A stretch of DNA of 64,000 nt from an uncultured Rhodospirillaceae bacterium (GCA_964404545.1 CAYOKN010000001.1:9669-73668), one strand, 5' to 3'; positions 14,588 through 58,287 are shown, counted from the first letter of the stretch. A program made the numbers and translations. Notes: generated from the letters alone by a model not told the origin.

Positions 14588-15358
14588 TCAGTCCACCTTG
14601 CGATACAGGGCGATGTGGGAATAACCCAGCCGATCCTCGATCCAGCGGTTCCCGGTCAGGCGGAAGACACTCTCCAGGAGACCATTGACCATCAGGTTCA
14701 AGGGGCTGAACGGCAAGGGCACCGCCGGCAAGGCGAAGCTGTGCCCCCGACCGGCCTGTCGCGAAAAGCCCAGTTCGGCCAGCACCGCCTCGATGTCGCC
14801 CCGGCTATGGTCGTTCTGGGTCTGGCTCACATTGTACAAGCGATAATGAGCCCGACGGAACAGGCTGTCCCGGTTCGGCCAGGACAGGATCAGATGCCCC
14901 CCGGGCCTGACGCACCGGGAAAGGGCCGCCAGAAACGGCCGCGCATCATCCACATATTGAACGACGCCCAGACAAAGGACCAGATCGAAGGGTTGCCCGG
15001 GAGTGAAATCCCGCAGATCCTGGACCTGGAAGGAAATGCCTGGATGCAGGCGCGCCGCCTGGTCAATCATACCCGGCGAGACGTCAATGCCCCACCGCTC
15101 GTCGGCGGCGATGGCAGCAATATTGTCGCCGGTCCCGCAGCCGACCTCGATCGCCCGACCCAAGCCGCCCAATCCGCTGGCCAGCCGCACGGCGATCCTG
15201 TGGCGCTTGGCGATGTCATAGACATCCATGGTGAGCGGCAGGCGAGCGCCATAATATTTCCGGCTCCACCAGCGGCTCATGGTGTCGTGCTTGCGCAGCG
15301 AAGCTCCCTCGACGGCGTCGCTTCCGGCCCCGCCGGTCTGGTCAGATCGCCCAGACAT
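14588..15358 (-). CDS. Class I SAM-dependent methyltransferase
   Basis: SAM motif I 'IEVGCGTGDNI' followed by 'FDLVLCLGVVQYVDD'. The start is uncertain: ATG at 15358 or ATG at 15280. Confidence 0.8.
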   Translation of the reverse strand: MSGRSDQTGGAGSDAVEGASLRKHDTMSRWWSRKYYGARLPLTMDVYDIAKRHRIAVRLASGLGGLGRAIEVGCGTGDNIAAIAADERWGIDVSPGMIDQAARLHPGISFQVQDLRDFTPGQPFDLVLCLGVVQYVDDARPFLAALSRCVRPGGHLILSWPNRDSLFRRAHYRLYNVSQTQNDHSRGDIEAVLAELGFSRQAGRGHSFALPAVPLPFSPLNLMVNGLLESVFRLTGNRWIEDRLGYSHIALYRKVD

Positions 15359-15779
15359 AGGGGATCGCCGGATCGGAGGGATCGAGGCGATCGGCCTCGC
15401 TGGGATCGTGGGGGATCGAGGCGCAGTTCGCCAGCAGCGCCGGCCGGCCATTCACGGCAGTGAAACCACTCCAGATCATGGGGGGCACGGTGACAAGCCG
15501 GTGGTCCGAGCCGATGCGGATTTCCTGGATCATCCCCTGCGACGGACTGGCCGGGCGATCGTCATAAAGGACCACCAGGGCATCCCCCTGCGGACAGGCG
15601 AGATTCAAGGTCATCCGGTGATGCCGCTTCCAGGCCTTGATCTGCCCCGGATTGACCGACGAGAAATAGATCTCCCCGAATCCGACAAAATGGGCTTCGG
15701 CACTACTGAGCATGGACTTTACCCAGCCGCGTTCATCGGCGATGACCCGCAAGGGCGTGATGAGAACATCCTTGATCAC
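15342..15779 (-). CDS. Short RmlC-like cupin, putative NDP-4-keto-6-deoxyhexose epimerase
   Basis: 145 aa. 'ITPLRVIADERGWVKSML...FGEIYFSSVNPGQIKAWKRHHRMT' resembles the RmlC/WbuC cupin core. It lies directly downstream of the rfbF-rfbG-SDR genes. Confidence 0.6.
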   Translation of the reverse strand: MIKDVLITPLRVIADERGWVKSMLSSAEAHFVGFGEIYFSSVNPGQIKAWKRHHRMTLNLACPQGDALVVLYDDRPASPSQGMIQEIRIGSDHRLVTVPPMIWSGFTAVNGRPALLANCASIPHDPSEADRLDPSDPAIPYVWAI

Positions 15780-18679: not shown

Positions 18680-20125
18680 CTAGCCGGCAAGCTTTCTGGC
18701 GACCAGCGTTTCCAGCCCGGAATACTGGCGGGTGGCCTCAATCTCGGTGCTGGTGAACGAAATGCCCAGCTCCTGCTCGACCTCGAGAATCACCTTGATA
18801 TGCCGCAGACTGTCCCACCCGGCCGTCGAGCCGAGCCCGGCAGAGGCAAGATCCTGTGGCGGGACCGGCCCGATGACCCGGCGCACGGCATCCGCAAGGC
18901 GGCTGCGCCAGGCCTCCGCCGGATCGGCAGCGAACGACGGGGCGGCACCGGAGCCGGCCTGTGGCGCGGCGGGCGCAGCCTCGGGCCGGGATCGGGATAT
19001 CCCATGGAAGCCGAACCGCATTTTTTCCGGCGCCCGCCCGGCCTCCACCATCACCACGCCGCCCTCGTCCAGATGCAGGTCCGCCAGTTCGGCCACTTCC
19101 TCGGGCAGCAGGCACCCCTGACCGGCCGGCCGCACTTCCCGAGAAAAGGCTGTTTCCACGAAACCGGGCGCGATCGTCAGCCCATGGATGCCATGGCCGG
19201 CATGGGCCCGGTCGAGACCGGCCACCAGATTAGTGGCGGCTGCCTTGACGGCCACATAGTCCGCCCAGCCCTCGGGCTGGCTGTCCACCGCCGTGGAACC
19301 GATCAGAATGATACTGCCTTGCTGGCGGGCCAACATCCCGGGCATCGCGGCCTTCACCATCTGGCCGAGCGCCTGGTAAGCCACAGCCATCTGCACGCCA
19401 AGCGGCGCACCAAGCGGCGCGGCGGCGGCATGCACCAGGATGTCGGGCCGCCGCTCGACGATGGCCCGCGTCACGGCCTCGCGGCCGGAGTCCTCGGCCA
19501 GATCAGCGGCGACCAGATCCCCTCCGGCGTCCCGGACCAGGTCGGCCAGCGGCTGCGGCGCCACCCCGCGATGCGGCAGGATGAGGCTGATCCCCTTGCG
19601 GGCGAGACGGCGCGCAATGGCGCCGCCGATGGCGCCGGTCGCCCCGGTGACCAGGGCGACCCGCCGATCCGTGCGCCGGATGGGAAAGGTCTCCGGCTGG
19701 GCCGGCCATTCGGCATCGCGGGCCTGAACCGTCATCCGCGCCTCGACCACCACTTCGGCCCCGCGAAGGACCAGAACGGACAGGGTCAGGACGCGGTTCG
19801 CCGCACTGATGGCCGAGATGCGTGCGGAATAGACCAGCGTCTCGCCGAAAAACACCGGCCGCACGGCGGTCAGCTCGTGCCCCAGATACAGCGATGGCAA
19901 GCCCGGCAGCATCATGCCGGCGATGGCCGAAAATGGCGCGACCGTCATATGCAGGGGCACGATCGGCTGACCGAAGGGCGTGTCGGCGGCATAGGCCGGA
20001 TCGTGATGCAACCGGTTGGAATCGCCACTGAGAGCCCGGAAGCCCTCGAAATCCGACTGGGCGAAGGTCCGCTCGAAGACCACGTGGTCCCCAAGCCGGA
20101 AATCGGAGAAACGAACGATGGTCAT
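18680..20125 (-). CDS. Tri-domain protein: MaoC-like (R)-hydratase/dehydratase hotdog + short-chain dehydrogenase/reductase + acyl carrier protein
   Basis: Trimmed to 'MTIVRFSDFRLGDHVVFERTF' (hotdog N-terminus). 'VALVTGATGAIGGAIARRL' is the SDR Rossmann motif. The C-terminal 'GSTAGWDSLRHIKVILEVEQELGISF' carries the carrier-protein DSL serine (codon 18809-18811). ATGA overlap with the upstream gene at 20122-20125. Confidence 0.8.
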   Translation of the reverse strand: MTIVRFSDFRLGDHVVFERTFAQSDFEGFRALSGDSNRLHHDPAYAADTPFGQPIVPLHMTVAPFSAIAGMMLPGLPSLYLGHELTAVRPVFFGETLVYSARISAISAANRVLTLSVLVLRGAEVVVEARMTVQARDAEWPAQPETFPIRRTDRRVALVTGATGAIGGAIARRLARKGISLILPHRGVAPQPLADLVRDAGGDLVAADLAEDSGREAVTRAIVERRPDILVHAAAAPLGAPLGVQMAVAYQALGQMVKAAMPGMLARQQGSIILIGSTAVDSQPEGWADYVAVKAAATNLVAGLDRAHAGHGIHGLTIAPGFVETAFSREVRPAGQGCLLPEEVAELADLHLDEGGVVMVEAGRAPEKMRFGFHGISRSRPEAAPAAPQAGSGAAPSFAADPAEAWRSRLADAVRRVIGPVPPQDLASAGLGSTAGWDSLRHIKVILEVEQELGISFTSTEIEATRQYSGLETLVARKLAG

Positions 20126-22608
20126 GCGTACTCCCCAGGAGCATCGGCAAATGTGACCGTCAGCCATGACGGCAGGGTAGGCAGCTGCCCCGACAGATCC
20201 AGGACCCATTGGCCGGGCCGGTCGCCGGGCTGGAAACCCGCCTCCGCATAAACGGCGCGCACCGGCGTATTCCGCTCGGTGTCCACGATCTCGCCCAGCA
20301 ACAGGGTGCAGCCCCGCCGCTTCGCCTCGCCCGCCAGCCAACGCGGCAGCATAGGCTCAAATCCGCGCCCCAGGACCCGGCAGGACAAGAGATAACTGTC
20401 GATCATGGCAACCCCGGGACGGGGCTCGTTCCATCGCACGATCAGAACACCGACTATTTCAGGGGCGCTGAAGCGGTCCTGCAGGCCAATGGTGAGGACG
20501 CTATGGCCCGCGGCCAGGAAAGACTGGAGATCCGCCTGCGCATGGCGCCGCGTGGTGGCGTTGAACTGATTGGTCTTGGACAGCAGCTGCACCGTCCGCA
20601 CCATGGTTCCGGCGGTAACGGGAGCAAGGGTCAAGCGGCTCTCCAGAGAAGCATAGAAGCTTTCCAGGTCGCCGGCGGCGCTGCGGGCGGCACGCACCCG
20701 CCCCTGCGCTTGATAAGCAGCGGTCCTTTTGCGGTCCTCGTCGGTGACCGACAGGAAGTCGAGCCAAAGGCAGTTCCGCAGGGCTTCGGCATAACCGGCC
20801 GGGTCCTGCGGCAGGTCCAGGATCTTCACCCCCGGCAGTTCCCGCGCCATCTTCGCCCGCTCCACGGGATTGTCGTCGATGAACAGGACATGGTCGACAC
20901 CCAGTTGTAGGTCTTGGCATATGGCCTTGAGATTTTCCGGCTTTTCCCGCCAATCGATGGCATGGGCGGCCAGATCGGCGCGGCGGAGAACCATGCCGGG
21001 ATGGCGATCTATCACGTCGAGAGCCTGCGCCTCGTCGTTCTTGCTCAGGACGGCCAGGGCCACGCCATGATCCGCCAGAACCTTGAGTTGGCGCTGGAAT
21101 TGGCCGAATGCATTGCCAGGGAAATCCCCCCCAAGCTGCAATCCGTCCATGCCGTCCTCGCCCAGCACACCGCCCCAGAGGGTGTTGTCCAAGTCGATAG
21201 CCAACAGCCGTACCGAACGGCCAAGAGCGGCAATGGAGAACCGGGCGATGCGATGCGCCACCTTGGCCGAGAAGGGATCGGAGTAGGGAAACCGCCCCAT
21301 CAGCCACAGACGGTCATCCGTCATTGCTGCCATGCTGTCCCCGCCCAGACCAGCCGGGTCGAACACGACAATCTGCGGCAGGGAACGGGTCAGGGATAGC
21401 AGGCGCCGGTTCATGGCTTCGAGCCGGTCCCGGACGCCCCCCTCGGCGCTCGTCCCCGCCGCCCCGGTCAGACCGGAACCGGAGAGCGGGAACAGGGAAA
21501 CCATCATCCATCCGCCCACCCGACCGCGATAGGCCGACAAGGCCTCCATATATTGCTCGAAGCGCGCTTCAGCCTGGGTCCAGTCAACCCCGTCCAGGTC
21601 CATGACGCCCAGCAGATCCTCGAGCCGGTCCAGGAACACGGCCATGTCCGGAGGCGCACGGTACAGGTCCGACCCGGCATCCAGCATCTGGCGGATCGCC
21701 TGCCCAAAGGCGGGCTGGAACAGTTCCAGCCGGCGATCTGGCAAAGCTTCGCCCAGGATCCTTCCGGTCTGGTCGGCCACCAATTGCAGATTGGCGCTGC
21801 CCATCAGCGCCAGGCGCACCGGGGCCTGCCCGGCGGCCATCTGCTTGCGCTCCAGCAGCCAGGCGGACCGGTGGCCCTGCTCGACCATGCCCCAGGGGTC
21901 CGCCAGCACTTGGCGACAGGCCGCGGCCACGGCGGAACAGGCGGCCGACTCCACCACGCCCCCCCACAAGGGGCGGCTTACAACGGCTCGGGCCTGATGC
22001 ATCAGTCGGATTACAGGCTCGAAATCATTGCGGCAGGGGACATCCAGAGTCCGGACCAGCATGGTGGCCTTGGCCTCGGCCATGCCCTCTCCAAAGTCGG
22101 CTTGTGCCCCGAAGGTCTTGAAATAGCGATAGGGAACCGCCGCCTCTTCCTCATAGCGGTGGAACTGGGTGCAATAGCTCCAGTCACAGCCCATCATGAG
22201 GATCCGGGCATCAAGGGCCTCGAACAGAGCCAATTGGGAGTCGGCGCCGAAGGTGGTGCTGTTGCGGCAGGCCAATACCTGATCCGCCAACGGGCCCGCG
22301 ACCGCATAGGAATAAATGGGATGGCGGGTACGCCGGAACTCAGGCAGATCCAGCGCCCAATCCCCAAGCAGCCCTGTTTCCGACGGGCTGGCCTTCAGGT
22401 CAAAGGGCTTGCCGCGACAGAAACTGAAGGTGAAGGCAGGAATGGCTATGCTGTGACCGCCAGCCAGAAGCTGGCGAAGCGCCCAAAGAAAATCCCACTT
22501 CCCCACCTGAGCCGGAGGCTTCAGATGGGGCAAGGAGGAATGGATGACAAGCAGCCGGTCGTCAGGATGAACACAGGCTTGCAGGCAGTCCAGGATCGCT
22601 TGTCGCAT
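20122..22608 (-). CDS. Tri-domain protein: AAC(3)/Antibiotic_NAT-like N-terminus + FkbH-type HAD-IIIC domain + GNAT-like C-terminus
   Basis: The N-terminus 'LLVIHSSLPHLKPP...IAIPAFTF' looks AAC(3)-like. The core 'LLAIDLDNTLWGGVLGEDG...VLSKNDE...VLFIDDNPVERA' carries the DxDxT HAD-IIIC/FkbH signature. I prefer the ATG at 22608; a GTG at 22632 is also possible. Confidence 0.8.
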   Translation of the reverse strand: MRQAILDCLQACVHPDDRLLVIHSSLPHLKPPAQVGKWDFLWALRQLLAGGHSIAIPAFTFSFCRGKPFDLKASPSETGLLGDWALDLPEFRRTRHPIYSYAVAGPLADQVLACRNSTTFGADSQLALFEALDARILMMGCDWSYCTQFHRYEEEAAVPYRYFKTFGAQADFGEGMAEAKATMLVRTLDVPCRNDFEPVIRLMHQARAVVSRPLWGGVVESAACSAVAAACRQVLADPWGMVEQGHRSAWLLERKQMAAGQAPVRLALMGSANLQLVADQTGRILGEALPDRRLELFQPAFGQAIRQMLDAGSDLYRAPPDMAVFLDRLEDLLGVMDLDGVDWTQAEARFEQYMEALSAYRGRVGGWMMVSLFPLSGSGLTGAAGTSAEGGVRDRLEAMNRRLLSLTRSLPQIVVFDPAGLGGDSMAAMTDDRLWLMGRFPYSDPFSAKVAHRIARFSIAALGRSVRLLAIDLDNTLWGGVLGEDGMDGLQLGGDFPGNAFGQFQRQLKVLADHGVALAVLSKNDEAQALDVIDRHPGMVLRRADLAAHAIDWREKPENLKAICQDLQLGVDHVLFIDDNPVERAKMARELPGVKILDLPQDPAGYAEALRNCLWLDFLSVTDEDRKRTAAYQAQGRVRAARSAAGDLESFYASLESRLTLAPVTAGTMVRTVQLLSKTNQFNATTRRHAQADLQSFLAAGHSVLTIGLQDRFSAPEIVGVLIVRWNEPRPGVAMIDSYLLSCRVLGRGFEPMLPRWLAGEAKRRGCTLLLGEIVDTERNTPVRAVYAEAGFQPGDRPGQWVLDLSGQLPTLPSWLTVTFADAPGEYA

Positions 22609-23805: not shown

Positions 23806-24684
23806 TCATGTTAAGTGAACGCCATGCGACAAACGGATGCCTGGATCCGAGGCGTAGTCCAAGATGCGAATGGCCCGGTCTGCACACACCACCAAGATCC
23901 CCTGCCCGCCAATATGGCACACTCGCCCCGGAACTCCTTTCAAATGGAATTCCGGAATACTGGTCGCAAACACACGAATTCGCTGTCCGTCCAGAAATGT
24001 AAAAGCACCAGGATAGGGCCGCGTCAGGCCGCGGACCAGATCATGAACCTGCCGGGCGGTCATACGGTGCCAGTCGATCCGGCCATCCGCATCGTTTCTC
24101 TGGTGCCAATAGACTGCGTCGTCGGGATTTTGCACCCTTTCCTGCAAGTTTCCCTGCGCCAGACGCGCCAACACGTCAAGGACGAGGTCGGGAAATACCT
24201 GGTTCGCCGCGTCATGCAAATCTGCGATTGTCATTTGGGCTGTAATCGGGATCAGGGCCTCAGCCAGAACATTTCCGGTGTCGATCCCGTCGTCGACCCG
24301 GATCACGCTGACTCCGGCCATCCGTTCGCCAGCAATGATTTGCCAGTTCAGGGGAGAACCACCCCGATATTGCGGCAGGCGACCGCCGTGCAGGTTGATT
24401 GTCCCGAACTTGGGCAAGTCAATCAGTGGACGGCGAAATATCTGCGAATAGCCGCCGATGATCGAAAGGCTATGCTCCCTTGCCTCGAAAGCTGCCAGAA
24501 AACTTGAAGCATTCACATCGGGCGCGGCGATCAGGGAGATTCCCAGCCGCTCGCCGACCGGGGCCAGTTGAGTCAGTGCGGTCGGGGGCGCATAGACCGC
24601 AGAGACCATGTGGCCGTGGTCAACAATGGCTTGCAGCACTGACAAGCCGCGCTGTCCATTCAAGAAGAAGGCGATGTCACGCAT
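23806..24684 (-). CDS. Sugar N-formyltransferase (Fmt/ArnA-N-like, N10-formyl-THF dependent)
   Basis: 'INLHGGRLPQYRGGSPLNWQIIAGE' carries the formyltransferase catalytic HxSLLPxxRG-type motif, and 'IRVDDGIDTGNVL' is present. ATG at 24684; the track start at 24696 is TTG. Confidence 0.85.
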   Translation of the reverse strand: MRDIAFFLNGQRGLSVLQAIVDHGHMVSAVYAPPTALTQLAPVGERLGISLIAAPDVNASSFLAAFEAREHSLSIIGGYSQIFRRPLIDLPKFGTINLHGGRLPQYRGGSPLNWQIIAGERMAGVSVIRVDDGIDTGNVLAEALIPITAQMTIADLHDAANQVFPDLVLDVLARLAQGNLQERVQNPDDAVYWHQRNDADGRIDWHRMTARQVHDLVRGLTRPYPGAFTFLDGQRIRVFATSIPEFHLKGVPGRVCHIGGQGILVVCADRAIRILDYASDPGIRLSHGVHLT

Positions 24685-25480
24685 CGGACCGATCAACCTT
24701 CCGTGCCAGCCCCCGCAGGGTCAGCTTGCCGGACGGTTCGACGACTCGCTCCAACGTCGCAAGGCGCAACCCCGCTTTGGCTACCAGAAGGCAAAAGGAT
24801 GCGGCGCTGAACGCGTGATAATGGTCCACATAGAACTCTTCACGGTCAGGGCCGATCCGGATCGCCTCCTCGCCATCTGGCAGTTCCACATAGATCGCCC
24901 CGTCGGGTGCAAGCAGGGCGGTTGCCTTGTCCAGGGGGGCGACAGGGTCCTCCAAATGCTCGAGCACCTTGTTGAAGGTAATCAGATCAAACGAACCGCC
25001 AATGTCCATGGTCCGGAAATCGCCGACCAGCGCCGAGACTCCGGCCGCCTCAATGGCGTGCTGAACATTCTGGGGGTCAGGATCAATCGCGGTGACAGAC
25101 CAGCCGTTTTCCTGCATGCATGCGCCAAACACCGCCGTCCCGGAACCCACATCGAGAACCTTCCGCCCCGACCCGGTCGCGGAAATCCGGTCGGCCAACC
25201 ACTTGACCCGCTGACGGTTGTCGGACTGATCCTTTGGCAGGGCCATGATCCTATCGAACCGCTCTCGCAGCACGCCATAGGAGGTCGCGCGGTAGTCGGC
25301 TGCATACAGCGTCGAAAGATCCATCCGATGGCGGTTGCTCAGATGCCCACACCCCCGACACCGCACTACCGTGCGCGAATACCCCGCCAACCTGAAATCG
25401 GGTTCCCCTGCCGGCGGAGCATCGAACCGACCAACGTTGTCCTCATCGGCACTGCCGCAAAAGAGGCAGACGCTCACCAT
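24677..25480 (-). CDS. Class I SAM-dependent methyltransferase with N-terminal Cys4 zinc-ribbon
   Basis: 'CLFCGS...CRGCGH' forms two CxxC pairs. SAM motif 'VLDVGSGTAVFG' is present. Confidence 0.8.
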   Translation of the reverse strand: MVSVCLFCGSADEDNVGRFDAPPAGEPDFRLAGYSRTVVRCRGCGHLSNRHRMDLSTLYAADYRATSYGVLRERFDRIMALPKDQSDNRQRVKWLADRISATGSGRKVLDVGSGTAVFGACMQENGWSVTAIDPDPQNVQHAIEAAGVSALVGDFRTMDIGGSFDLITFNKVLEHLEDPVAPLDKATALLAPDGAIYVELPDGEEAIRIGPDREEFYVDHYHAFSAASFCLLVAKAGLRLATLERVVEPSGKLTLRGLARKVDRSDA

Positions 25481-26592
25481 TGCCAGTCCTCAACCAAGAA
25501 ATCCTTGATCGTCCAAACGTCACCCGCCTTGGACCAAACCGATTCATTACGGAAGCTTTCCGCCACCTCCCAGAACCAGGACACCGGCTCGCCAACAAAT
25601 CGGCAAAAAGCCTCGATGTCCGCATCCGGAGCCTGAAGTTTTCCTCCGCGCATCTGATCGATTGCTTCCTCGCGGCTAATCATGCCATAGCGGACCTGGA
25701 CGGACAGATTATCGAAGTCTCGAGTGATGCCGAACTTGTACCACTTCAACAAGTGGTGGAGCGAAATGAACTCGCAATCGATGTCCGCGAAAGTCCACCG
25801 TCCCGTCCGGGGCTGCTCGGCCTGGTTAAAGCCGTACTTTGCCGCAATCGCGGCATTCTCGAACGAGTTCCATTTGAAATAGGACCCAAGGAAGATCGAG
25901 CGTGTCTTCTTGGTAAACCTATCTTCGGAGGGCAACCGATAGGCCACCAGGTCTTCAGACGTGAGACCTTCCTTGCCAACCCAATCATCGATTGCCGTGT
26001 TGTTCGAAACGCCGTAGCGACGAATCCAGTCAAGGTTCAAATCCGTCGCCAATCGGTCGGCCTCCGGGCCGCCGAATTCCAATTGCGGATTTTCACCCCA
26101 GACCACCAGCGGAATTCCAAAATCGACGGCCAGACGCGTGGAAATGGCGAACATCGCCATATGCATCGGAATCGCCGTTGCCCCCTTATGAACAAAGGCG
26201 GCCTTTGTGAATTTCCGCTCGACTTCAGGGCTGATGCTGTAATCGATATGGTCAATTCCCAACTGCTTGACCATGTTGTCAAGATTTCGCTGACCGATGG
26301 CGGTCCGCGCTGGTGTGCGCCAGGTCACACCCAACACCTTCAAACCATACTCCTGACAGCGGATCACTTGATACCAGCTGTCCTTTCCACCGCTCACCGG
26401 GACAATGCAGTCATAACCACCGGACAAAGCCTTGGCCTCGTCGACCACTGCTTGAAAGGCTTTCGCCCGATCGGCCCAATCGATTTTCGTTTCTTTGTCG
26501 TCGTGTCCGCGGCACGCGGAGCAGACGCCCTCCTCGTCCAGGACGATTCCAGGCCGAGAATCCGGGAGAATACATCTGGTGCAATAGCGCAT
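25474..26592 (-). CDS. N-acetyl sugar amidotransferase (PP-loop ATP-pyrophosphatase; WbpG/PseA/WbuX-type)
   Basis: 'MRYCTRCILPDSRPGIVLDEEGVCSACRGH' is a zinc-ribbon N-terminus, followed by the PP-loop 'VPVSGGKDSWYQV'. Confidence 0.85.
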   Translation of the reverse strand: MRYCTRCILPDSRPGIVLDEEGVCSACRGHDDKETKIDWADRAKAFQAVVDEAKALSGGYDCIVPVSGGKDSWYQVIRCQEYGLKVLGVTWRTPARTAIGQRNLDNMVKQLGIDHIDYSISPEVERKFTKAAFVHKGATAIPMHMAMFAISTRLAVDFGIPLVVWGENPQLEFGGPEADRLATDLNLDWIRRYGVSNNTAIDDWVGKEGLTSEDLVAYRLPSEDRFTKKTRSIFLGSYFKWNSFENAAIAAKYGFNQAEQPRTGRWTFADIDCEFISLHHLLKWYKFGITRDFDNLSVQVRYGMISREEAIDQMRGGKLQAPDADIEAFCRFVGEPVSWFWEVAESFRNESVWSKAGDVWTIKDFLVEDWQW

Positions 26593-26595
26593 TTG

Positions 26596-28828: not shown

Positions 28829-28837
28829 GGCCCGAAT

Positions 28838-29854
28838 TCAATCCGAAAGCATCGCGCGCCGCAACTGCATCCCGCGCTTCAGATCATGAACCAGGGTTTT
28901 GCCGAGCACGCGGCATTCATCATTCCAGGAAAACTCTGTGGCGGGCCTGGCGAACATGAGGTCACCCTTGGCGATCACTGCGCCGGCAGGCAGGTCACGA
29001 GCTGCCACAAGACCTTTCCGGAACGCCTCGGCCATTCCTTCTTCGACGGCTTGTCGTTCCTTGCCGAACCGCCCCACCGCCGCCTTCAATTTCGGCGCCA
29101 TATCGACCAGGCGCCTCATATCATCGGCATCCACGGAAAGCTGGTGGTCGCGAAACTCCCGCCCCGTCTTGCAATCCGTAAAATGCACTTCGACGACACT
29201 GGCGCCCAGAGCAATCGCACCAAAAACCGCATCAAGTCCGATGACGTGGTTGGAATAACCCACCGCCACGCCATAGCGCTGGGCAAGAAACGGAATGCTC
29301 GCCAGATTTGCCTGCTCCAAAGGAACCGGGTACGCCGCCACGCAATGCAACAGCACCAAGCGCTCAGCGAGCGATACGTCGTCCGGCAGTTCTTCAAGGA
29401 CCCACTGCACTGCCCGATCAATCTCGACCGGTGTCCCGAGCCCCGTAGAGAGGATCACCGGCAGTCCGGTGGCAGCCGCAGCCCGAACCACGGGCTCGAA
29501 GGTCAAGTCTCCACTGGCGATCTTCATGGCCGACCCGAGGGTGGCCAACAAGGGCACCCAATCTTCGCTCACGGGGGTGGACAAGAACCGAACCCCCAGC
29601 TCCGCCGCTTCGGCAGCCAAGCGACGATGGGCCTCCTCATCCAACTGAAACCGGCTTACGCGGCTGAATCGGACCGGGTCGTCGCCAGCGATGAAACGCT
29701 CGGGCGTATAGCTCTGAAACTTGACCGCATCGGCGCCGGACTCCGCCGCCAATCTCAGAAGTTCGCTCGCCTTTTCGACGTCTCCCTCGTGGTTCACGCC
29801 GATCTCGGCAATGATCACGACATCGGTGCCCAGGTTCTTGCCAAACAGCCGCAT
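28838..29854 (-). CDS. NeuB-family nonulosonic-acid synthase (PseI/LegI/NeuB-like) with C-terminal SAF domain
   Basis: 'VVIIAEIGVNHEGDVEKASELLRLAAESGADAVKFQSY' and 'KIASGDLT' are NeuB core strings. The C-terminal 'GLVAARDLPAGAVIAKGDL' looks SAF-like. Confidence 0.88.
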   Translation of the reverse strand: MRLFGKNLGTDVVIIAEIGVNHEGDVEKASELLRLAAESGADAVKFQSYTPERFIAGDDPVRFSRVSRFQLDEEAHRRLAAEAAELGVRFLSTPVSEDWVPLLATLGSAMKIASGDLTFEPVVRAAAATGLPVILSTGLGTPVEIDRAVQWVLEELPDDVSLAERLVLLHCVAAYPVPLEQANLASIPFLAQRYGVAVGYSNHVIGLDAVFGAIALGASVVEVHFTDCKTGREFRDHQLSVDADDMRRLVDMAPKLKAAVGRFGKERQAVEEGMAEAFRKGLVAARDLPAGAVIAKGDLMFARPATEFSWNDECRVLGKTLVHDLKRGMQLRRAMLSD

Positions 29855-29868
29855 TTTCGATCCTAAGG

Positions 29869-30567
29869 TCAGGCCGCAGTTACAACCAAGAAATGATGCT
29901 CGACCAATATGTTGGCGCCGGTCGCCACCAGCCGTCTGCCATCCACGGTATTGATGGTGAACGTCTCGGTTGGTCGGCTTGGGGGCGGCAAATCAATCGG
30001 CAGCAGGAATTTTTCGAAGTCAGCCTTGTAGCCCCTGGCATCCAAGTGTTCACGCACGGTCCGCACGGAAAACGAGGTGAAGCCGCCATCCCAGTCCCCA
30101 CCTGGCACCTTGTATTGGATTTTGGTATCCACATCGGCGGAATTGAAACGACCGAACAGAAACAGGGTCCCGCCAGGCACCATCCAATTGAGCCAGATAT
30201 CGAGGACCCGGCAGGGATCGTCGAAAATGCTGAGAATGCCCGAGGCCACAAGGGCATCAAAGCGCTCTGCTGGCTGGTAGGTCAAGGAGTCGGCAACCTC
30301 GAACGTCATGCGCAAATGTTCGTTTGAAGATTTGGCAAGCTCAATCAATTCGGAGTTCAGGTCGATGCCGTGCAGGCTGATACCAGGAAAACGTTCGGCC
30401 AAAAGCCGCATCCCGAATCCTTGCGCGCAGCCGATGTCCAGAAAGCGTCCCGTCGGCTCGCCCAGCCGTTCCTCAATAATCTCCGCCAGCCGCAGTTCGT
30501 GAAACTTCGGCGGCCGTGCCGGCACAAACAGCTTGGCGTTTACATCCCTCCATCCGAACTGATTCAT
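29869..30567 (-). CDS. Class I SAM-dependent methyltransferase
   Basis: 'RFLDIGCAQGFGMRLL' is SAM motif I, and 'FDALVASGILSIFDD' is present. Confidence 0.8.
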   Translation of the reverse strand: MNQFGWRDVNAKLFVPARPPKFHELRLAEIIEERLGEPTGRFLDIGCAQGFGMRLLAERFPGISLHGIDLNSELIELAKSSNEHLRMTFEVADSLTYQPAERFDALVASGILSIFDDPCRVLDIWLNWMVPGGTLFLFGRFNSADVDTKIQYKVPGGDWDGGFTSFSVRTVREHLDARGYKADFEKFLLPIDLPPPSRPTETFTINTVDGRRLVATGANILVEHHFLVVTAA

Positions 30568-32214: not shown

Positions 32215-32458
32215 AAAATGCAGCTTTCCAAGCAGGAAGGACGCACCCGAATAGCGATTCAGCCGTACCTACGTCAAGCTTGTTTTGAAAAGCATGCTTC
32301 AGATAAGATGCCGTTGACCTGAGTGAGGCTATGCAAGCCGCCTTATATCATACTATTCTAGTTTGGTATTGGCGCTAGCGCTTAGTGCGCAGCCCCCGGT
32401 CGGGCCCCCACTCGGGCTCGTCCGCAGCACTGCCTCGGAATTCGCTGGAGCAAGACAA
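32215..32458. promoter_or_regulatory. Divergent promoter/leader region between the 32-kb minus-strand train and the plus-strand radical-SAM operon
   Basis: This 244-bp gap is the longest non-coding one in the window and is locally AT-rich. It contains the 10-nt palindromes AAGCATGCTT (32290-32299) and GCGCTAGCGC (32372-32381). GGAG lies 9 nt before the ATG at 32459. I could not assign -35/-10 boxes confidently. Confidence 0.5.
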
Positions 32459-34023: not shown

Positions 34024-35319
34024 ATGACCATCCAGTCGCCGGAGATCGGCGATCTCATGCATTCCTGGGCGCGGGATCTTTATCCCATCCCGCGCAGCCT
34101 GACCGGCAACGGGGTCCGCCAGTCGCTGGCCTATCTGCAAAAGCTCATCCCCGAGATGACCATCCATGAAGTTCCGTCGGGCACGGCCTGCTTCGATTGG
34201 GCGGTGCCGGACGAATGGAACATCCGCGATGCCTACATTGCCGACGAGGCGGGCAACCGGGTGGTGGACTTCAAGCAGCATACGCTGCATGTGATGGGCT
34301 ATTCCGAGCCGGTCGATGCCTGGATGACTCTCGACGACCTGCAACCGCATCTCTATTCACTTCCCGAGATGCCGGACGCCATTCCCTATATCACCTCATT
34401 CTACAAGCGCCGCTGGGGCTTCTGCCTGCAGCACGAGAAGCGCGAGGCTCTAAAGCCCGGACGTTACCACGTGGTGATTGACAGCACCCTGGAGCCCGGC
34501 AGCCTGACCTATGGTGAAGTGATCCTGCCGGGTCGGGAACAGAAGGAAATTCTTCTTTCCACCTATATCTGCCACCCGTCCATGGGCAACAACGAGCTAT
34601 CCGGCCCTGTGGTGACCACAGCCCTGGCCCGCTGGGTGGCCGGCCTCAAGGATCGCCGCCATACCTACCGCATCGTGTTCTGCCCGGAGACCATCGGCAC
34701 GATCCTCTATATCAGCCGCAATCTCGAGGCCCTGAAAAAGAACACCATCGCCGCCTTTGTGATCACCTGCATCGGCGATGAGCGCAATTACTCCCTCATG
34801 CGCTCGCGCCTGGGCGACACCCTGGCGGACCGGGTGGCGACCCATGTGTTCAAGCACTATGCCGGCAATTACCGGGAGTATGCCTTTCTGGAAGGCGGCG
34901 GCAGTGACGAACGGCAATATGGCAGCCCGGGAGTGGACCTGCCCGTGGTGTCGCCCATGCGCACCAAGCACGGCGACTTCCCGGAATACCACACCTCCAA
35001 GGACGATCTTTCGGTGATCACCCCGGCCGGCCTGTTTGGCGGCTATGAGGTGGTGCGCCGCTGCCTCGAGGCCTTGGAGGGCAATTACCGCTACCGCACC
35101 AAGGTTCTGTGCGAACCCCAATTGGGCAAGCGGGGCCTGTATCCCACCCTCAGCACCGGCAAGACATCGCGGGATATCAGCGTCATGCGCCGCGTCCTTT
35201 CCTACAGCGACGGCAACCACGACCTGTTGCAGGTGGCCGAGCGCATCCAGGTACCTGTCTGGGAATGCATGGAGCAGGCTGAGAAACTGTTCGCCGGCGG
35301 TGTGCTGGAGCGGATCTGA
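34024..35319 (+). CDS. Aminopeptidase-like (M28-fold) DUF4910/DUF2172-type protein with C-terminal winged-helix
   Basis: 431 aa. 'LMHSWARDLYPIPRSLTGNGVRQSLAYLQKLIPEMTIHEVPSGTACFDWAVPDEWN' is how I remember this family starting. A good RBS (GGGAACGAGG) precedes the ATG at 34024. Confidence 0.7.
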   Translation: MTIQSPEIGDLMHSWARDLYPIPRSLTGNGVRQSLAYLQKLIPEMTIHEVPSGTACFDWAVPDEWNIRDAYIADEAGNRVVDFKQHTLHVMGYSEPVDAWMTLDDLQPHLYSLPEMPDAIPYITSFYKRRWGFCLQHEKREALKPGRYHVVIDSTLEPGSLTYGEVILPGREQKEILLSTYICHPSMGNNELSGPVVTTALARWVAGLKDRRHTYRIVFCPETIGTILYISRNLEALKKNTIAAFVITCIGDERNYSLMRSRLGDTLADRVATHVFKHYAGNYREYAFLEGGGSDERQYGSPGVDLPVVSPMRTKHGDFPEYHTSKDDLSVITPAGLFGGYEVVRRCLEALEGNYRYRTKVLCEPQLGKRGLYPTLSTGKTSRDISVMRRVLSYSDGNHDLLQVAERIQVPVWECMEQAEKLFAGGVLERI

Positions 35320-38450: not shown

Positions 38451-39393
38451 CCAAGCCCAGCTGCAGCGTCAGCACCGCCATGGCCTGCACGATGGGCGTC
38501 TTGGGGGCTTCGCGGCCCTCGACGCCCGCGATGACGTGCCGGGCCTGGTCCATATACATGGCATTCACATCATCCAGCGGACAATCGATCACGCGGTCGG
38601 ATTTCGAGCCGGCGTCATAGCACCAGACCTGACCGCGCCGCACATCCCATTCGATGGTGCCCCGCTCGCCGGTGATGTGGTAGCGCCGGCGATAATCCCG
38701 CTGCAGATAGTCGAGCTGCAGGCTGCACAGGGCCCCGCTGGCAAGCCGCAGAACCACCGAGGCCACGTCATCGGTCTCGATCTCCAGCGTTCCGCTGTGA
38801 CCCACGAACCCAAAGGCCTCGTCCACCGGGCCCAGCAACCAGGTCAGATAGTCGAACTCGTGGGTATCGAACACCACGCCGCCACCCAGGGCTTTACGGG
38901 CGGAATACATCTGCCGGTAATCTTCCCAGGGATGCCAGTCGGGTAGATACTGGCCCGCCAGGACCTGGGCGCCGACCACTCGGCCGATGGCCTCTTGCTC
39001 CAGCAAGCCCTTCATGGCCTGGAACGAGGCATGGAACTTCCAATTGGACCCCACATGGGCGAACAGCCCCCTGTCCGCCACAAGGTCGGCCAGGGCCTGC
39101 ACACCCTCCAGGGACACCGCCAGCGGCTTCTCGATGAACAGGTGGCTGCCCGCCTGGGCAAAGGCCAGCGCCTGTGGAACATGGAAGACGTTGGGGCTGG
39201 CAATGACCGCAAGGTCCGGAGCCGAGGCGACAGCCGCCTCCAAAGTGGGCACGGTGGGAAAGCCGGTTGCCTCGGTATAGGCGGCCCGCCGCTCCGGATG
39301 CGGATCGAAGCCGGTCACGTCCAGGCCCAGCGCCCTGAAATTGCGGGAATGGCGGGTGCCGATGGACCCCAGGCCGGCAATCATCACCCGCAT
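38419..39393 (-). CDS. Gfo/Idh/MocA-family NAD(P) oxidoreductase
   Basis: 'MRVMIAGLGSIGTRHSRNF' (Rossmann motif) and 'LFIEKPLA' (family EKP motif). Confidence 0.85.
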   Translation of the reverse strand: MRVMIAGLGSIGTRHSRNFRALGLDVTGFDPHPERRAAYTEATGFPTVPTLEAAVASAPDLAVIASPNVFHVPQALAFAQAGSHLFIEKPLAVSLEGVQALADLVADRGLFAHVGSNWKFHASFQAMKGLLEQEAIGRVVGAQVLAGQYLPDWHPWEDYRQMYSARKALGGGVVFDTHEFDYLTWLLGPVDEAFGFVGHSGTLEIETDDVASVVLRLASGALCSLQLDYLQRDYRRRYHITGERGTIEWDVRRGQVWCYDAGSKSDRVIDCPLDDVNAMYMDQARHVIAGVEGREAPKTPIVQAMAVLTLQLGLVSPRSGASRG

Positions 39394-40562: not shown

Positions 40563-40567
40563 GGACG

Positions 40568-41608
<1,041 letters not shown>

Positions 41609-47187: not shown

Positions 47188-47204
47188 TGGCGCGATGACT
47201 CCGG

Positions 47205-58284: not shown

Positions 58285-58287
58285 GGG

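What the first reader, a model, noticed from the sequence alone, without database searches (positions are those of the whole stretch)
18680..22608. Polyketide-style acyl-arm factory inside a sugar locus: AAC(3)-like/FkbH/GNAT-like protein coupled to a MaoC-SDR-ACP protein
Seen: two ATGA-coupled multidomain genes. ORF 20122-22608 has an aminoglycoside-N3-acetyltransferase-like N-terminus ('LLVIHSSLPHL'). Its core is FkbH/HAD-IIIC with the DxDxT nucleophile ('AIDLDNTLWGG', 'LSKNDE', 'FIDDNPVE'), and its tail is GNAT-like. ORF 18680-20125 fuses a MaoC hotdog dehydratase, an SDR ('VALVTGATGAIGG') and a carrier protein whose DSL serine is at codon 18809-18811. Established: FkbH enzymes load a glyceryl unit from 1,3-bisphosphoglycerate onto a dedicated ACP, as in the methoxymalonyl-ACP and tetronate pathways. 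Inference: a C3 unit is built on the in-cis ACP. The dehydratase and reductase may then process it to a glyceroyl, lactyl, pyruvoyl or hydroxyacyl form. The AAC(3)-like or GNAT-like domain would then N-acylate an amino sugar made by the neighbouring aminotransferases. Flanking methyltransferases at 14588, 24677 and 29869 could O-methylate it; compare the di-O-methylglyceroyl pseudaminic acids reported on Campylobacter flagellin. I know of no characterised enzyme with either domain architecture.
Basis: partly seen in the sequence, partly recalled or inferred. Interest (0 to 1): 0.8.

Follow-up and report, generated by a model that had tools for sequence, protein, structure and literature searches.

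The report
Carrier-protein acyl arm for sugar amines
Two overlapping genes in a large surface-sugar locus look like a small assembly line that builds a three-carbon acid on a carrier protein and attaches it to an amino sugar; the line is widespread, has never been tested biochemically, and may explain the unusual glyceroyl-type groups on bacterial sialic-acid-like sugars.

Summary
Both genes lie on the minus strand. ORF A (20122-22608, 828 aa) has four parts: an AAC(3)/Antibiotic_NAT fold, FkbH_N, a HAD-IIIC domain (DLDNT), and the FkbH C-terminal domain with an invariant Ser-Cys-Arg. ORF B (18680-20125, 481 aa) is a MaoC hotdog, an SDR and an ACP whose Ser439 codon is 18809-18811. The two genes overlap by ATGA.

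The "GNAT-like tail" is FkbH's own C-terminal half, not an extra domain. Neither architecture is rare: 65 of the best 150 representatives of the AAC(3)-like clade carry the same fusion, and ORF B has about 110 full-length relatives on the same contigs.

It directly follows A and B in Inquilinus, Sinorhizobium and Stenotrophobium. It belongs to the family of Campylobacter Cj1295, which is required for di-O-methylglyceroyl-pseudaminic acid. The window also encodes PseB, PseC, two NeuB paralogues and several methyltransferases.

Related AAC(3)-like domains are fused to ACPs or to adenylation-carrier modules. This suggests the domain takes its acyl group from a carrier protein.

Best model: FkbH loads glyceryl onto the ACP, MaoC and the SDR probably convert it to lactyl, and the AAC(3)-like domain amidates a sugar amine. 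Nothing has been shown biochemically. I rate it a new variant of known logic, interest 0.6.

The parts
20122..22608 (-). ORF A, 828 aa: AAC(3)-like - FkbH_N - HAD-IIIC - FkbH C-terminal (GNAT-like) domain; stop codon 20122-20124
21859..22608 (-). AAC(3)/Antibiotic_NAT-fold domain (aa 1-250). Proposed N-acyltransferase that takes its acyl group from the carrier protein. Invariant H23, S25, H150, E153.
   Evidence: Pfam 72.6 bits. Foldseek AAC(3)-IVa, FrbF and YokD, TM-score (target-normalised) ~0.75. Catalytic His alignment. Fusions to ACP or adenylation-carrier modules elsewhere.
21229..21843 (-). FkbH_N domain (aa ~256-460)
   Evidence: 3slr BF1531 alignment, E=1e-46. Foldseek TM-score (target-normalised) 0.84. 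PF21211: 17.9 bits here, 27.9 bits (above the cut-off of 27) in homologue P0002.
20773..21213 (-). HAD-IIIC phosphatase domain (aa 466-612) with D472-L-D474-N-T476, S522/K523 and D578/D579
   Evidence: TIGR01681 61.4 bits against 35.75. These residues are invariant or near-invariant in 80 loci (K523 in 74/80); D472/D474/T476 lie inside a pattern used to find the loci.
20125..20772 (-). FkbH C-terminal acyl-transfer domain (aa 613-828), GNAT-like, with invariant S742-C743-R744 (SCRVLGRG)
   Evidence: Covered by TIGR01686 to aa 793. Weak Acetyltransf_1 match, 18.4 bits. GNAT-like beta/alpha order in the model. SCR motif in 80/80 loci.
18680..20125 (-). ORF B, 481 aa: MaoC hotdog - SDR - linker - ACP; stop codon 18680-18682
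19685..20125 (-). MaoC/(R)-hydratase-type hotdog dehydratase (aa 1-147), invariant D35 and H40
   Evidence: Pfam 38.4 bits against 27. PhaJ 1iq6, E=3e-16. Invariants.
19010..19669 (-). SDR ketoreductase-like domain (aa 153-372): TGxxGxxG motif, Y290 and K294
   Evidence: adh_short 80.2 bits. FabG and PhaB are the closest folds, TM-score (target-normalised) ~0.75. Invariants.
18683..18922 (-). Acyl carrier protein domain (aa 402-481). W437-D438-S439-L440 is invariant; the Ser439 codon is 18809-18811.
   Evidence: PP-binding 21.3 bits against 20.8 on the isolated tail. The tail profile hits 59 solved ACPs. Four-helix model with Ser439 at the start of helix 439-453. Sequence read.
34024..35319 (+). 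DUF4910/DUF2172/HTH_47 protein (Cj1295 / CA_C2195 family), the likely third component of the module
   Evidence: Pfam 325 and 132 bits. 3k9t, E=3e-107. It directly follows A and B in L082, L083 and L084. Found in 9 of 11 AAC(3)-positive loci and 0 of 72 AAC(3)-negative loci.
24677..25489 (-). SAM methyltransferase (candidate O-methylase of the acyl arm or the sugar); limits are stop-to-stop
14588..15451 (-). SAM methyltransferase; limits are stop-to-stop
29869..30567 (-). SAM methyltransferase; limits are stop-to-stop
28838..29992 (-). NeuB-family nonulosonic acid synthase (first paralogue). It scores below the equivalog cut-offs of both NeuB and PseI.
39384..41608 (-). PseC aminotransferase (39384-40640) and PseB inverting 4,6-dehydratase (40568-41608). 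They supply the candidate acceptor amine.
   Evidence: TIGR03588 462 bits against 423.5; TIGR03589 523.9 bits against 407.75

Best explanation
ORF A, ORF B and the separately encoded DUF2172 protein (34024-35319) form a carrier-protein-dependent N-acylation module for a surface glycan. The proposed steps are below; all steps are inferred and only the domain identities are shown.

1. The HAD-IIIC plus C-terminal halves of ORF A act as an FkbH enzyme. They take 1,3-bisphosphoglycerate, form a (phospho)glyceryl thioester on Cys743, dephosphorylate it using Asp472/Asp474, and pass glyceryl to the phosphopantetheine arm on Ser439 of the ACP at the end of ORF B.
2. The MaoC hotdog of ORF B removes the 3-OH. 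This gives enol-pyruvoyl and then pyruvoyl-S-ACP.
3. The SDR reduces the 2-oxo group to give lactyl-S-ACP (2-hydroxypropanoyl). This is the same logic proposed for lactate starter units in trans-AT polyketide loading modules.
4. The N-terminal AAC(3)-fold domain of ORF A uses the acyl-S-ACP, instead of acetyl-CoA, to amidate a free amine of an amino sugar. The most likely acceptor is N5 or N7 of the pseudaminic-acid-type nonulosonate made by the window's PseB, PseC and NeuB genes.
5. The DUF2172 partner either exposes that amine, as a de-N-acetylase (the role proposed for Cj1295), or scaffolds the transfer.
6. The methyltransferases of the locus may O-methylate the arm.
For: Domain identity and catalytic residues.

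Tight coupling: ATGA overlap.

The ACP is the partner of FkbH and AAC(3):
- AAC(3)-FkbH-ACP triple fusions exist in P0023 and P0095.
- An ACP is adjacent in L003, L006 and L008.

MaoC-SDR is an optional add-on to FkbH plus ACP. It is present in L002, L004, L005, L009, L019, L021, L037, L059, L080 and L082-84, and absent in L003, L006 and L008.

No ketosynthase was found in any ORF scanned in the window. FkbH is therefore the only visible source of an acyl unit.

The AAC(3)-like clade works with carrier proteins. Relatives are fused directly after adenylation and PP-binding domains (P0338, P0333, P0351) or after a PP-binding domain (P0334).

The A-B-DUF2172 cassette is conserved in three genera, and DUF2172 tracks the AAC(3)-like domain strictly.

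Link to nonulosonic acids:
- PseB, PseC, NeuB and a PseF-like gene are in the window.
- The cassette sits inside a Pse locus in Sinorhizobium sp. RAC02.
- NeuB, AsnB and WbuX are conserved next to A-B in L002.
- The C. acetobutylicum NeuB/Maf locus carries DUF2172, AAC(3), ACP and HAD genes.
- Cj1295 is required for Pse5(2,3-di-O-methylglyceroyl)7Ac.

An analogous acyltransferase-plus-deacetylase pair (GNAT plus Polysacc_deac_1) follows MaoC-SDR, FkbH and ACP in L037.

Chemistry: FkbH plus ACP gives glyceryl-ACP. A pathway-reconstruction table lists an FkbH loading module as giving D-lactate-ACP.
Against: - No step has been tested for any member of this family.
- The identification of Cys743 with the catalytic cysteine of characterised FkbH enzymes rests on conservation only.
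- MaoC enzymes normally act on 3-hydroxyacyl chains of C4 or longer. Alpha-keto reduction by a FabG-like SDR is assumed, not shown.
- An N-lactyl nonulosonic acid has not, to my knowledge, been described. Glyceroyl and di-O-methylglyceroyl forms have.
- In this window A and B sit in an operon with CDP-glucose pathway genes (17871-18659, 16790-17857), not next to the pse genes. DUF2172 orthologues are also often next to glucose-1-phosphate cytidylyltransferases. The acceptor could therefore be a CDP-linked amino-dideoxyhexose.
- In Inquilinus the three-gene cassette lies outside any sugar locus.
- Das et al. report that the DUF2172 family lacks the canonical metallopeptidase catalytic residues, which weakens the deacetylase idea.
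Confidence: 0.55

Rival explanations
1. The machine is the same, but the arm stays a glyceroyl (2,3-dihydroxypropanoyl) group. It may be O-methylated by the flanking methyltransferases, as in Campylobacter Pse5(2,3-di-O-methylglyceroyl)7Ac or Tannerella Pse5Am7Gra. MaoC and the SDR would then do something other than net deoxygenation, for example inverting C2 or editing mis-loaded units.
For: The only N-acyl C3 groups documented on nonulosonic acids are glyceroyl and di-O-methylglyceroyl. Three or more methyltransferases lie in the locus. Loci with AAC(3)-FkbH plus ACP but no MaoC-SDR exist (L003, L006, L008), so glyceroyl transfer alone appears to be viable.
Against: MaoC-SDR is fused to the very ACP that FkbH must load. 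Both catalytic dyads are invariant across about 110 relatives. This argues for obligatory processing of the ACP-bound unit. The DH + KR + FkbH + ACP combination is the lactate logic.
Confidence: 0.2
2. The acceptor is not a sugar of this locus. The cassette would acylate some other amine (a small metabolite, a lipid head group or a protein), and its position in the sugar locus would be incidental or secondary.
For: In Inquilinus the A-B-DUF2172 cassette stands alone between housekeeping genes. Relatives occur in Streptomyces (L005). AAC(3)-like relatives fused to adenylation-carrier modules sit in non-sugar contexts (L085).
Against: In the window the genes lie inside a continuous operon of nucleotide-sugar genes, with gaps of 20-24 nt. 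The cassette is embedded in Pse or capsule loci in L083, L084, L002 and L004. The neighbourhood statistics of Das et al. tie DUF2172 to sugar-modifying genes. The Cj1295 phenotype affects a glycan.
Confidence: 0.1
3. ORF A is what its database name says: a HAD-IIIC phosphatase (for example acting on a sugar phosphate such as a nonulosonate 9-phosphate) fused to an ordinary acetyl-CoA-dependent N-acetyltransferase. ORF B would be an unrelated 3-hydroxyacyl-ACP processing enzyme.
For: Source annotations read 'HAD-IIIC family phosphatase'. All characterised Antibiotic_NAT enzymes use acetyl-CoA (AAC(3) enzymes and FrbF).
Against: The full FkbH model is matched well above its cut-off, including the non-phosphatase C-terminal half. 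The Ser-Cys-Arg motif is invariant. ACPs are fused or adjacent to the protein. The two genes overlap by ATGA and co-occur strictly.
Confidence: 0.07
4. ORF B makes a 3-hydroxyacyl or enoyl arm (for example 3-hydroxybutanoyl, which is common on Pse/Leg and amino sugars) from fatty-acid-type intermediates. FkbH would be irrelevant to the arm.
For: The closest solved relatives of the two catalytic domains are PhaJ and FabG/PhaB, the enzymes of (R)-3-hydroxybutyryl chemistry.
Against: No ketosynthase or thiolase was found in the window. MaoC-SDR-ACP relatives sit next to FkbH genes in 12 independent loci.
Confidence: 0.05

Closest known systems
FkbH / OzmB / Tmn16-type glyceryl-ACP loaders of polyketide pathways (methoxymalonyl-ACP and tetronate routes)
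   Same: Same family by the curated model (TIGR01686, 264 bits). It shares the HAD DxDxT phosphatase core, the C-terminal transfer domain with a conserved Cys, and a dedicated ACP partner.
   Different: There is no polyketide synthase, no FabH-like tetronate-forming enzyme and no FkbK/FkbI/FkbG oxidation-methylation set. Here the enzyme is fused to an AAC(3)-fold domain and sits in a glycan locus. Its ACP is fused to a MaoC hotdog and an SDR.
Lactate-starter loading modules of trans-AT polyketide synthases (DH-KR-FkbH-ACP, e.g. bryostatin BryA; recalled from my own knowledge, with only a table entry found)
   Same: The same four activities (dehydratase, ketoreductase, FkbH, ACP) are combined around one carrier. 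They are predicted to turn glyceryl into lactyl via pyruvoyl.
   Different: The dehydratase is a MaoC/PhaJ-type single hotdog, not a PKS double-hotdog DH. The activities are split over two proteins. No ketosynthase follows. The proposed release step is amide formation on a sugar.
Campylobacter jejuni NCTC 11168 flagellin-glycosylation sub-cluster Cj1295-Cj1304 (di-O-methylglyceroyl-pseudaminic acid)
   Same: The component set matches, going by annotation and published clustering: a DUF2172 protein (Cj1295), AAC(3)-like proteins (Cj1296/7, Cj1298), ACPs, a methyltransferase and an FkbH-domain protein (cj1302), next to pse genes.
   Different: In Campylobacter the components are separate genes, and a FabH-like gene is present (my own knowledge of the annotation). 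No MaoC-SDR-ACP fusion has been reported there. I could not align the Campylobacter sequences directly. Only Cj1295 has a phenotype.
Clostridium acetobutylicum CA_C2195 neighbourhood (Das et al. 2014, PDB 3k9t)
   Same: DUF4910/DUF2172/wHTH protein, aminoglycoside-N3-acetyltransferase homologue, ACP and an 'N-acetyltransferase + HAD phosphatase' protein sit beside NeuB and Maf genes. That paper's neighbour cluster already lists 822- and 830-aa 'FkbH domain' proteins among the AAC(3) homologues.
   Different: The work was purely bioinformatic. It made no link to glyceryl loading, noted no MaoC-SDR-ACP partner and proposed no mechanism.
Antibiotic_NAT family: AAC(3) resistance enzymes, FrbF, YokD
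   Same: Same fold (TM-score, target-normalised, ~0.75). The HSS motif and the catalytic histidine are conserved.
   Different: It scores far below every NCBIfam AAC(3) equivalog cut-off (34.5 bits against 420). It is a domain of a multidomain protein. The donor is inferred to be acyl-ACP rather than acetyl-CoA, and the acceptor a nucleotide sugar or nonulosonate rather than an aminoglycoside.

Membership tests
FkbH (TIGR01686) | Match to the curated FkbH model above its cut-off, covering both the HAD half and the C-terminal half | tested here: met
   264.3 bits against 146.65, aa 466-793, model positions 3-320 of 323
FkbH (TIGR01686) | HAD catalytic motifs (DxDxT nucleophile/acid, S/T, K, DD) | tested here: met
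   D472, D474, T476, S522, D578 and D579 are present in 80/80 related loci and K523 in 74/80. D472/D474/T476 lie inside a search pattern used to find the loci; the others do not.
FkbH (TIGR01686) | Conserved cysteine in the C-terminal domain that carries the glyceryl intermediate | tested here: inconclusive
   S742-C743-R744 is invariant in 80/80 loci. I could not align it with an experimentally mapped FkbH or OzmB cysteine.
FkbH (TIGR01686) | Dedicated ACP partner | tested here: met
   An ACP is at the C-terminus of the overlapping gene. ACPs are fused to A-type proteins in P0023 and P0095 and are adjacent in L003, L006 and L008.
FkbH (TIGR01686) | Uses 1,3-bisphosphoglycerate to form glyceryl-S-ACP | not testable with these tools
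   Needs intact-protein MS.
Antibiotic_NAT (PF02522) | Pfam model above the gathering score, and the AAC(3) fold | tested here: met
   72.6 bits against 25. Foldseek 6mn3, 3sma and 2nyg at E~1e-12, TM-score (target-normalised) 0.72-0.78.
Antibiotic_NAT (PF02522) | Catalytic histidine (His154 of AAC(3)-IVa) | tested here: met
   It aligns with His150, which is invariant in 16/16 homologues and 9/9 loci.
AAC(3) aminoglycoside-resistance enzymes (NCBIfam NF033081/NF033082 and relatives) | Score above the equivalog cut-off | tested here: not met
   Best score is 34.5 bits against a cut-off of 420. This is not a resistance enzyme.
MaoC/(R)-specific enoyl hydratase | Pfam above the gathering score, plus the catalytic Asp/His of the hydratase motif | tested here: met
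   38.4 bits against 27. D35 and H40 are invariant in 17/17 sequences. PhaJ 1iq6, E=3e-16.
Classical SDR ketoreductase | Gly-rich NAD(P) motif and catalytic Tyr-x3-Lys | tested here: met
   T160-G161-x2-G164-x2-G167 and K294 are invariant; Y290 is conserved in at least 90%. FabG and PhaB are the top structural matches.
Acyl carrier protein (PF00550) | PP-binding model above the gathering score | tested here: inconclusive
   16.8 bits (below 20.8) on the whole protein; 21.3 bits (above 20.8) on the isolated tail.
Acyl carrier protein (PF00550) | Four-helix bundle with the D-S-L serine at the start of helix II | tested here: met
   Helices 402-418, 439-453, 459-464 and 468-480 with Ser439. W-D-S-L is invariant. 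The tail profile hits 59 solved ACPs, the best at 3.4e-10.
Acyl carrier protein (PF00550) | Phosphopantetheinylation of the serine | not testable with these tools
   No PPTase gene was sought or found in the window.
trans-AT PKS lactate loading module (DH-KR-FkbH-ACP) | Part of a polyketide synthase, with a downstream ketosynthase and a PKS-type DH | tested here: not met
   No ketosynthase in any scanned ORF. The dehydratase is MaoC-type. It works like this module but is not a member.
Cj1295-type glycan N-acyl module (DUF2172 + AAC(3)-like + ACP + FkbH) | A DUF4910/DUF2172/HTH_47 protein encoded with the AAC(3)-like protein | tested here: met
   In the window at 34024-35319. Adjacent in L082-84. 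Found in 9/11 against 0/72 loci.
Cj1295-type glycan N-acyl module (DUF2172 + AAC(3)-like + ACP + FkbH) | Direct sequence homology to Cj1295, Cj1296/7, Cj1298 and cj1302 | not tested
The link rests on published annotations and clustering.
Pseudaminic acid pathway (context) | PseB and PseC equivalogs present | tested here: met
   TIGR03589 523.9 bits against 407.75; TIGR03588 462 bits against 423.5.

The most novel reading that the evidence does not exclude
A general, previously unrecognised way of decorating bacterial glycans. An Antibiotic_NAT-fold domain acts as an off-loading amide synthase that takes acyl groups from carrier-protein thioesters and not from acyl-CoA. It works with a DUF2172 partner and accepts interchangeable loaders: FkbH for C3 units, adenylation domains for other acids. 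In this locus it would make an N-lactyl (2-hydroxypropanoyl, possibly O-methylated) pseudaminic-acid-type sugar, an N-acyl group not yet reported on nonulosonic acids.
Probability: 0.3. Interest if true: 0.75.

Novelty: new variant of a known kind. Interest (0 to 1): 0.6.

Why it matters
Pseudaminic and legionaminic acids on flagella, S-layers, capsules and O-antigens carry varied N-acyl groups that shape immune recognition and phage binding. The enzymes that install anything other than acetyl or acetimidoyl are largely unknown. A 2017 study called the genetic basis of the N-glyceroyl group 'a major challenge'. Papers from 2026 still list Cj1295 and Cj1296 as poorly understood.

This locus gathers the relevant activities into two fused proteins plus one partner, which gives a compact set for reconstitution:
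- test FkbH-type loading on the ACP;
- test MaoC/SDR tailoring of the bound unit;
- test whether an aminoglycoside-acetyltransferase fold can use acyl-ACP;
- test what DUF2172 proteins do.

If the model holds, it assigns a function to several hundred 'HAD-IIIC family phosphatase' and 'SDR family oxidoreductase' annotations. It also shows polyketide starter-unit chemistry being reused in glycan biosynthesis.

Tried and rejected
- Literature. Searches for FkbH together with pseudaminic, legionaminic, nonulosonic, flagellin or O-antigen terms found one sentence only, naming cj1302 as an FkbH-domain gene. I found no paper that proposes FkbH as the source of glyceroyl groups on sugars. Subscription journals are not covered.
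- Bryostatin precedent. I could not find the primary reference for the BryA DH-KR-FkbH-ACP lactate starter in the library. Only a table entry supports it, so that comparison is marked as my own knowledge.
- GNAT-like tail. Foldseek ranks whole-model hits, and the top 50 were all BF1531 and AAC(3) structures. Support is limited to a sub-threshold Pfam hit and the secondary-structure order.
- NeuB association of the wider FkbH-like family (without AAC(3)). It is weak: about 7 of 84 loci within 10 kb. I therefore did not claim that all FkbH-like glycan genes serve nonulosonic acids.
- Context of an adenylation-carrier-AAC(3) relative (L085). It is not a sugar locus. It supports carrier dependence but says nothing about a sugar acceptor.
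- Fatty-acid-type 3-hydroxyacyl arm. Rejected as the lead model because no ketosynthase is present and because MaoC-SDR is linked to FkbH.
- AAC(3)-like domain acetylating the glyceryl 3-OH for elimination (an Agg4/Agg5-like scheme). Rejected because AAC(3)-FkbH occurs without MaoC-SDR and tracks DUF2172 instead.
- Source organism. Not determined. The closest loci are from Alphaproteobacteria.

Full report
WHAT IS THERE

The stretch 18680-22608 holds two genes on the minus strand. ORF A runs from the ATG at 22608 to the stop at 20124-20122 (828 aa). An in-frame GTG at 22632 is possible, but homologues start at the position of the ATG, and AGGGA lies upstream of it. ORF B starts at the ATG 20125-20123, which overlaps A's TGA (GCATGACC, preceded by GGGGAG). 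It ends at 18680 (481 aa). The flanking genes are 24 and 20 nt away, so the pair sits inside a long operon.

DOMAINS OF ORF A

- Pfam Antibiotic_NAT covers aa 22-209 (72.6 bits; gathering score 25).
- NCBIfam TIGR01686 FkbH covers aa 466-793 (264.3 bits against 146.65).
- TIGR01681 HAD-IIIC covers aa 468-589.
- PDB chain 3slr, the 'N-terminal part of BF1531' from Bacteroides fragilis, aligns with aa 256-612 (E=1e-46). This shows a further domain, Pfam FkbH_N, between the AAC(3)-like part and the HAD core.
- An AlphaFold model built on 16 homologues has mean pLDDT 87.
- Foldseek returns 3slr (TM-score, target-normalised, 0.84). It then returns AAC(3)-IVa, FrbF, YokD and other Antibiotic_NAT structures (about 0.75) for the first 250 residues.
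- The catalytic His154 of AAC(3)-IVa aligns with His150, which is invariant.
- All AAC(3) resistance equivalog cut-offs are missed by a wide margin.
- The C-terminal 215 residues are part of the FkbH model. They give only a sub-threshold GNAT hit (18.4 bits against 20.7) and have a GNAT-like strand/helix order.
- Within them, Ser742-Cys743-Arg744 (SCRVLGRG) is invariant in all 80 related loci examined. So are the HAD residues S522, D578 and D579, which were not part of the search patterns.

DOMAINS OF ORF B

- MaoC_dehydratas scores 38.4 bits against 27. adh_short scores 80.2 bits against 26.6.
- The best solved relatives are PhaJ (1iq6, E=3e-16) and FabG. FabG and PhaB are also the top structural matches.
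- In 17 homologues the hydratase Asp35 and His40, the TGxxGxxG motif and K294 are invariant, and Y290 is conserved in at least 90%.
- The carrier domain scores below the Pfam cut-off in the whole protein (16.8 bits) and just above it as an isolated tail (21.3 bits against 20.8).
- A profile of 15 tails finds 59 solved ACPs (best E=3.4e-10).
- The model shows a disordered linker (373-401) followed by a four-helix bundle, with Ser439 at the start of helix II.
- W437-D438-S439-L440 is invariant.

HOW COMMON, AND WITH WHAT

Sources call them 'HAD-IIIC family phosphatase' or 'FkbH-like protein'. A search of 1.84 billion 50%-cluster representatives with the AAC(3)-like domain alone gives 96 hits at E<=1e-30 and 894 at E<=1e-10. 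Of the best 150, 65 are 780-920 aa with the domain at the N-terminus, which is the same fusion. ORF B has about 110 full-length relatives, many on contigs of the same lengths as ORF A relatives.

In genome loci, A and B are adjacent in an Alphaproteobacteria MAG (L002), Bradyrhizobium jicamae (L004), a Streptomyces (L005), Inquilinus (L082), Sinorhizobium sp. RAC02 (L083) and Stenotrophobium (L084).

Variants are informative:
- Some A-type proteins carry the ACP at their own C-terminus (P0023, P0095), or have only an ACP next door (L003, L006, L008).
- FkbH-like genes without the AAC(3) part are flanked by MaoC-SDR and a free-standing ACP in L019 and L037, among sugar-biosynthesis genes (PseB-like, PseC-like and NeuB-like tblastn hits).

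So the core is FkbH plus ACP. MaoC-SDR is an optional tailoring unit, and the AAC(3)-like domain is an optional but frequent fusion.

THE MISSED THIRD COMPONENT

In Inquilinus, Sinorhizobium and Stenotrophobium the gene directly after A and B encodes a DUF4910/DUF2172/HTH_47 protein. The window has one too, at 34024-35319 on the plus strand. It is homologous to PDB 3k9t (CA_C2195) at E=3e-107. By tblastn this protein is present in 9 of 11 loci that have the AAC(3)-like domain and in none of 72 FkbH-like loci that lack it. In L007 and L038 the three elements occur in other orders.

Published work fits this:
- Cj1295 of C. jejuni is a DUF2172 protein. It is required for the 5-(2,3-di-O-methylglyceroyl) derivative of pseudaminic acid on flagellin, and its authors proposed that it removes the N5-acetyl group.
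- Its neighbours Cj1296/7 are annotated as an aminoglycoside N3'-acetyltransferase.
- cj1302 is an FkbH-domain gene.
- Das et al. (2014) found that CA_C2195 orthologues are linked to aminoglycoside-N3-acetyltransferase homologues, ACPs and an 'N-acetyltransferase + HAD phosphatase' protein, next to NeuB and Maf genes.
- Their neighbour cluster 64 lists 822- and 830-aa 'FkbH domain' proteins together with Cj1296 and Cj1298.

The neighbourhood and the fusion have thus been seen before. No mechanism was attached to them, and no paper in the searchable library links FkbH to glyceroyl sugars.

THE LOCUS

The whole 64-kb window is glycan biosynthesis. It contains:
- PseB (40568-41608) and PseC (39384-40640), both above their equivalog cut-offs;
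- two NeuB paralogues (28838-29992, 46117-47400) and two CMP-transferase-type genes (42961-43746, 58288-59022);
- a WbuX amidotransferase (25474-26595) and three AsnB-like amidotransferases;
- a formyltransferase (23806-24696), a PIG-L de-N-acetylase (43743-44552) and a PseH-like GNAT (36145-36723);
- a LIC12162-family transferase, two B12-radical SAM enzymes, an ATP-grasp enzyme and a carbamoyltransferase;
- several methyltransferases and glycosyltransferases.

Immediately downstream of ORF B are a glucose-1-phosphate cytidylyltransferase-type nucleotidyltransferase and a CDP-glucose-4,6-dehydratase-like gene. No ketosynthase was found in any scanned ORF.

MECHANISM: WHAT IS SHOWN AND WHAT IS INFERRED

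Shown:
- domain identities and catalytic residues;
- translational coupling of A and B;
- conserved co-occurrence of A, B and the DUF2172 gene;
- fusions of ACPs to A-type proteins;
- fusions of related AAC(3)-like domains directly behind adenylation and PP-binding domains or behind a PP-binding domain (P0338, P0333, P0351, P0334).

Established elsewhere: FkbH enzymes turn 1,3-bisphosphoglycerate into glyceryl-S-ACP. FkbH loading modules are credited with lactate starters (plus my own recollection of BryA).

Inferred: FkbH loads glyceryl on Ser439. MaoC eliminates the 3-OH to give pyruvoyl-ACP, and the SDR reduces it to lactyl-ACP. The AAC(3)-like domain then transfers the arm to a sugar amine. 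The carrier fusions are the main argument that this clade takes its acyl group from a phosphopantetheine thioester. The DUF2172 protein would free or present the amine. An analogous GNAT plus polysaccharide-deacetylase pair follows MaoC-SDR, FkbH and ACP in L037, which fits a 'deacetylate, then re-acylate' scheme.

UNCERTAINTIES

- Product. Lactyl is favoured by the domain logic. Only glyceroyl-type arms are documented on nonulosonic acids.
- Acceptor. A Pse-type sugar is favoured by L083, L002, the Clostridium locus and the Cj1295 phenotype. However, in this window the operon neighbours are CDP-hexose genes, and DUF2172 orthologues are also often next to glucose-1-phosphate cytidylyltransferases.
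- The Inquilinus cassette stands outside any sugar locus.
- Das et al. report that the DUF2172 family lacks the canonical peptidase residues.

VERDICT

It is improved by adding the DUF2172 partner and the carrier-dependence argument, and corrected on the GNAT tail and on rarity.

This is not a categorically new system. It redeploys known FkbH/ACP (and probably DH/KR) starter-unit chemistry in glycan N-acylation, in a neighbourhood already noted in 2014 and genetically touched by Cj1295. No member has been characterised, and the proposed use of an aminoglycoside-acetyltransferase fold as an acyl-ACP-dependent amide synthase would be new.

Scores: interest 0.6; new variant of a known kind.

Noticed in passing
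window 34024-35319 (+): A DUF4910/DUF2172/HTH_47 protein, the family of Campylobacter Cj1295 and of PDB 3k9t. It lies 11 kb from the finding, but in other genomes it directly follows the A-B pair.
   Followed up: yes
P0338, P0332, P0343, P0333, P0351, P0334; L085 3627-6956: The same AAC(3)-like clade occurs fused behind adenylation + carrier domains, sometimes with an N-terminal formyltransferase or a C-terminal condensation domain. The one context I examined (L085) is not a sugar locus. This suggests a wider class of carrier-dependent Antibiotic_NAT off-loading domains.
   Followed up: partly
L082 10001-15275 (Inquilinus): The three-gene cassette (AAC(3)-FkbH, MaoC-SDR-ACP, DUF2172) stands alone between RNase PH, HrcA/GrpE and unrelated genes, with no sugar genes within 10 kb.
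   Followed up: no
L037 8659-14087 (Candidatus Solibacter): MaoC-SDR, FkbH (without AAC(3)), a free-standing ACP, a 376-aa GNAT and a Polysacc_deac_1 deacetylase sit in a row after DegT and a PglF-like dehydratase. The acyltransferase + deacetylase pair parallels AAC(3) + DUF2172.
   Followed up: partly
window 28838-29992 (-), 46117-47400 (-), 42961-43746 (+), 58288-59022 (-): Two NeuB-family synthases and two CMP-transferase-type genes in one window. The locus probably makes two different nonulosonic or ulosonic acids. The first NeuB scores below the equivalog cut-offs of both NeuB and PseI.
   Followed up: partly
window 32363-34006 (+) and 52366-54609 (-): Two B12-binding radical SAM enzymes (class-B methyltransferase type) inside the glycan locus, one directly upstream of the DUF2172 gene. 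They could C-methylate a sugar or the acyl arm.
   Followed up: no
window 5932-8229, 11541-13601, 26975-28837 (all -), 25474-26595 (-): Three asparagine-synthase-type amidotransferases plus a WbuX N-acetyl-sugar amidotransferase. This predicts amidated uronic acids and an acetamidino group in the product. AsnB, NeuB and WbuX are also conserved beside A-B in L002.
   Followed up: partly
window 23806-24696 (-): An ArnA/Fmt-like formyltransferase two genes upstream of ORF A, implying an N-formyl amino sugar in the same glycan. A formyltransferase domain is also fused to some adenylation-carrier-AAC(3) relatives (P0333, P0351).
   Followed up: no
window 26001-34000: G+C falls to 0.52-0.60, against 0.64-0.69 elsewhere. 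The dip covers the block with NeuB, AsnB, a methyltransferase and the radical SAM gene, which suggests that part of the locus was acquired horizontally.
   Followed up: no
window 48352-49302, 49303-51093, 59023-60840 (all -), 54435-55616 (+): An ATP-grasp ligase, a carbamoyltransferase, an HMGL-like aldolase-type protein and an FkbM-type methyltransferase. These are further tailoring genes of unknown target in the same locus.
   Followed up: no
window 36720-38450 (+), 7869-9449 (-), 56506-58287 (-): A LIC12162-family transferase (a Leptospira O-antigen-locus family) and two large ORFs with no Pfam match. These may be a polymerase or novel transferases.
   Followed up: no
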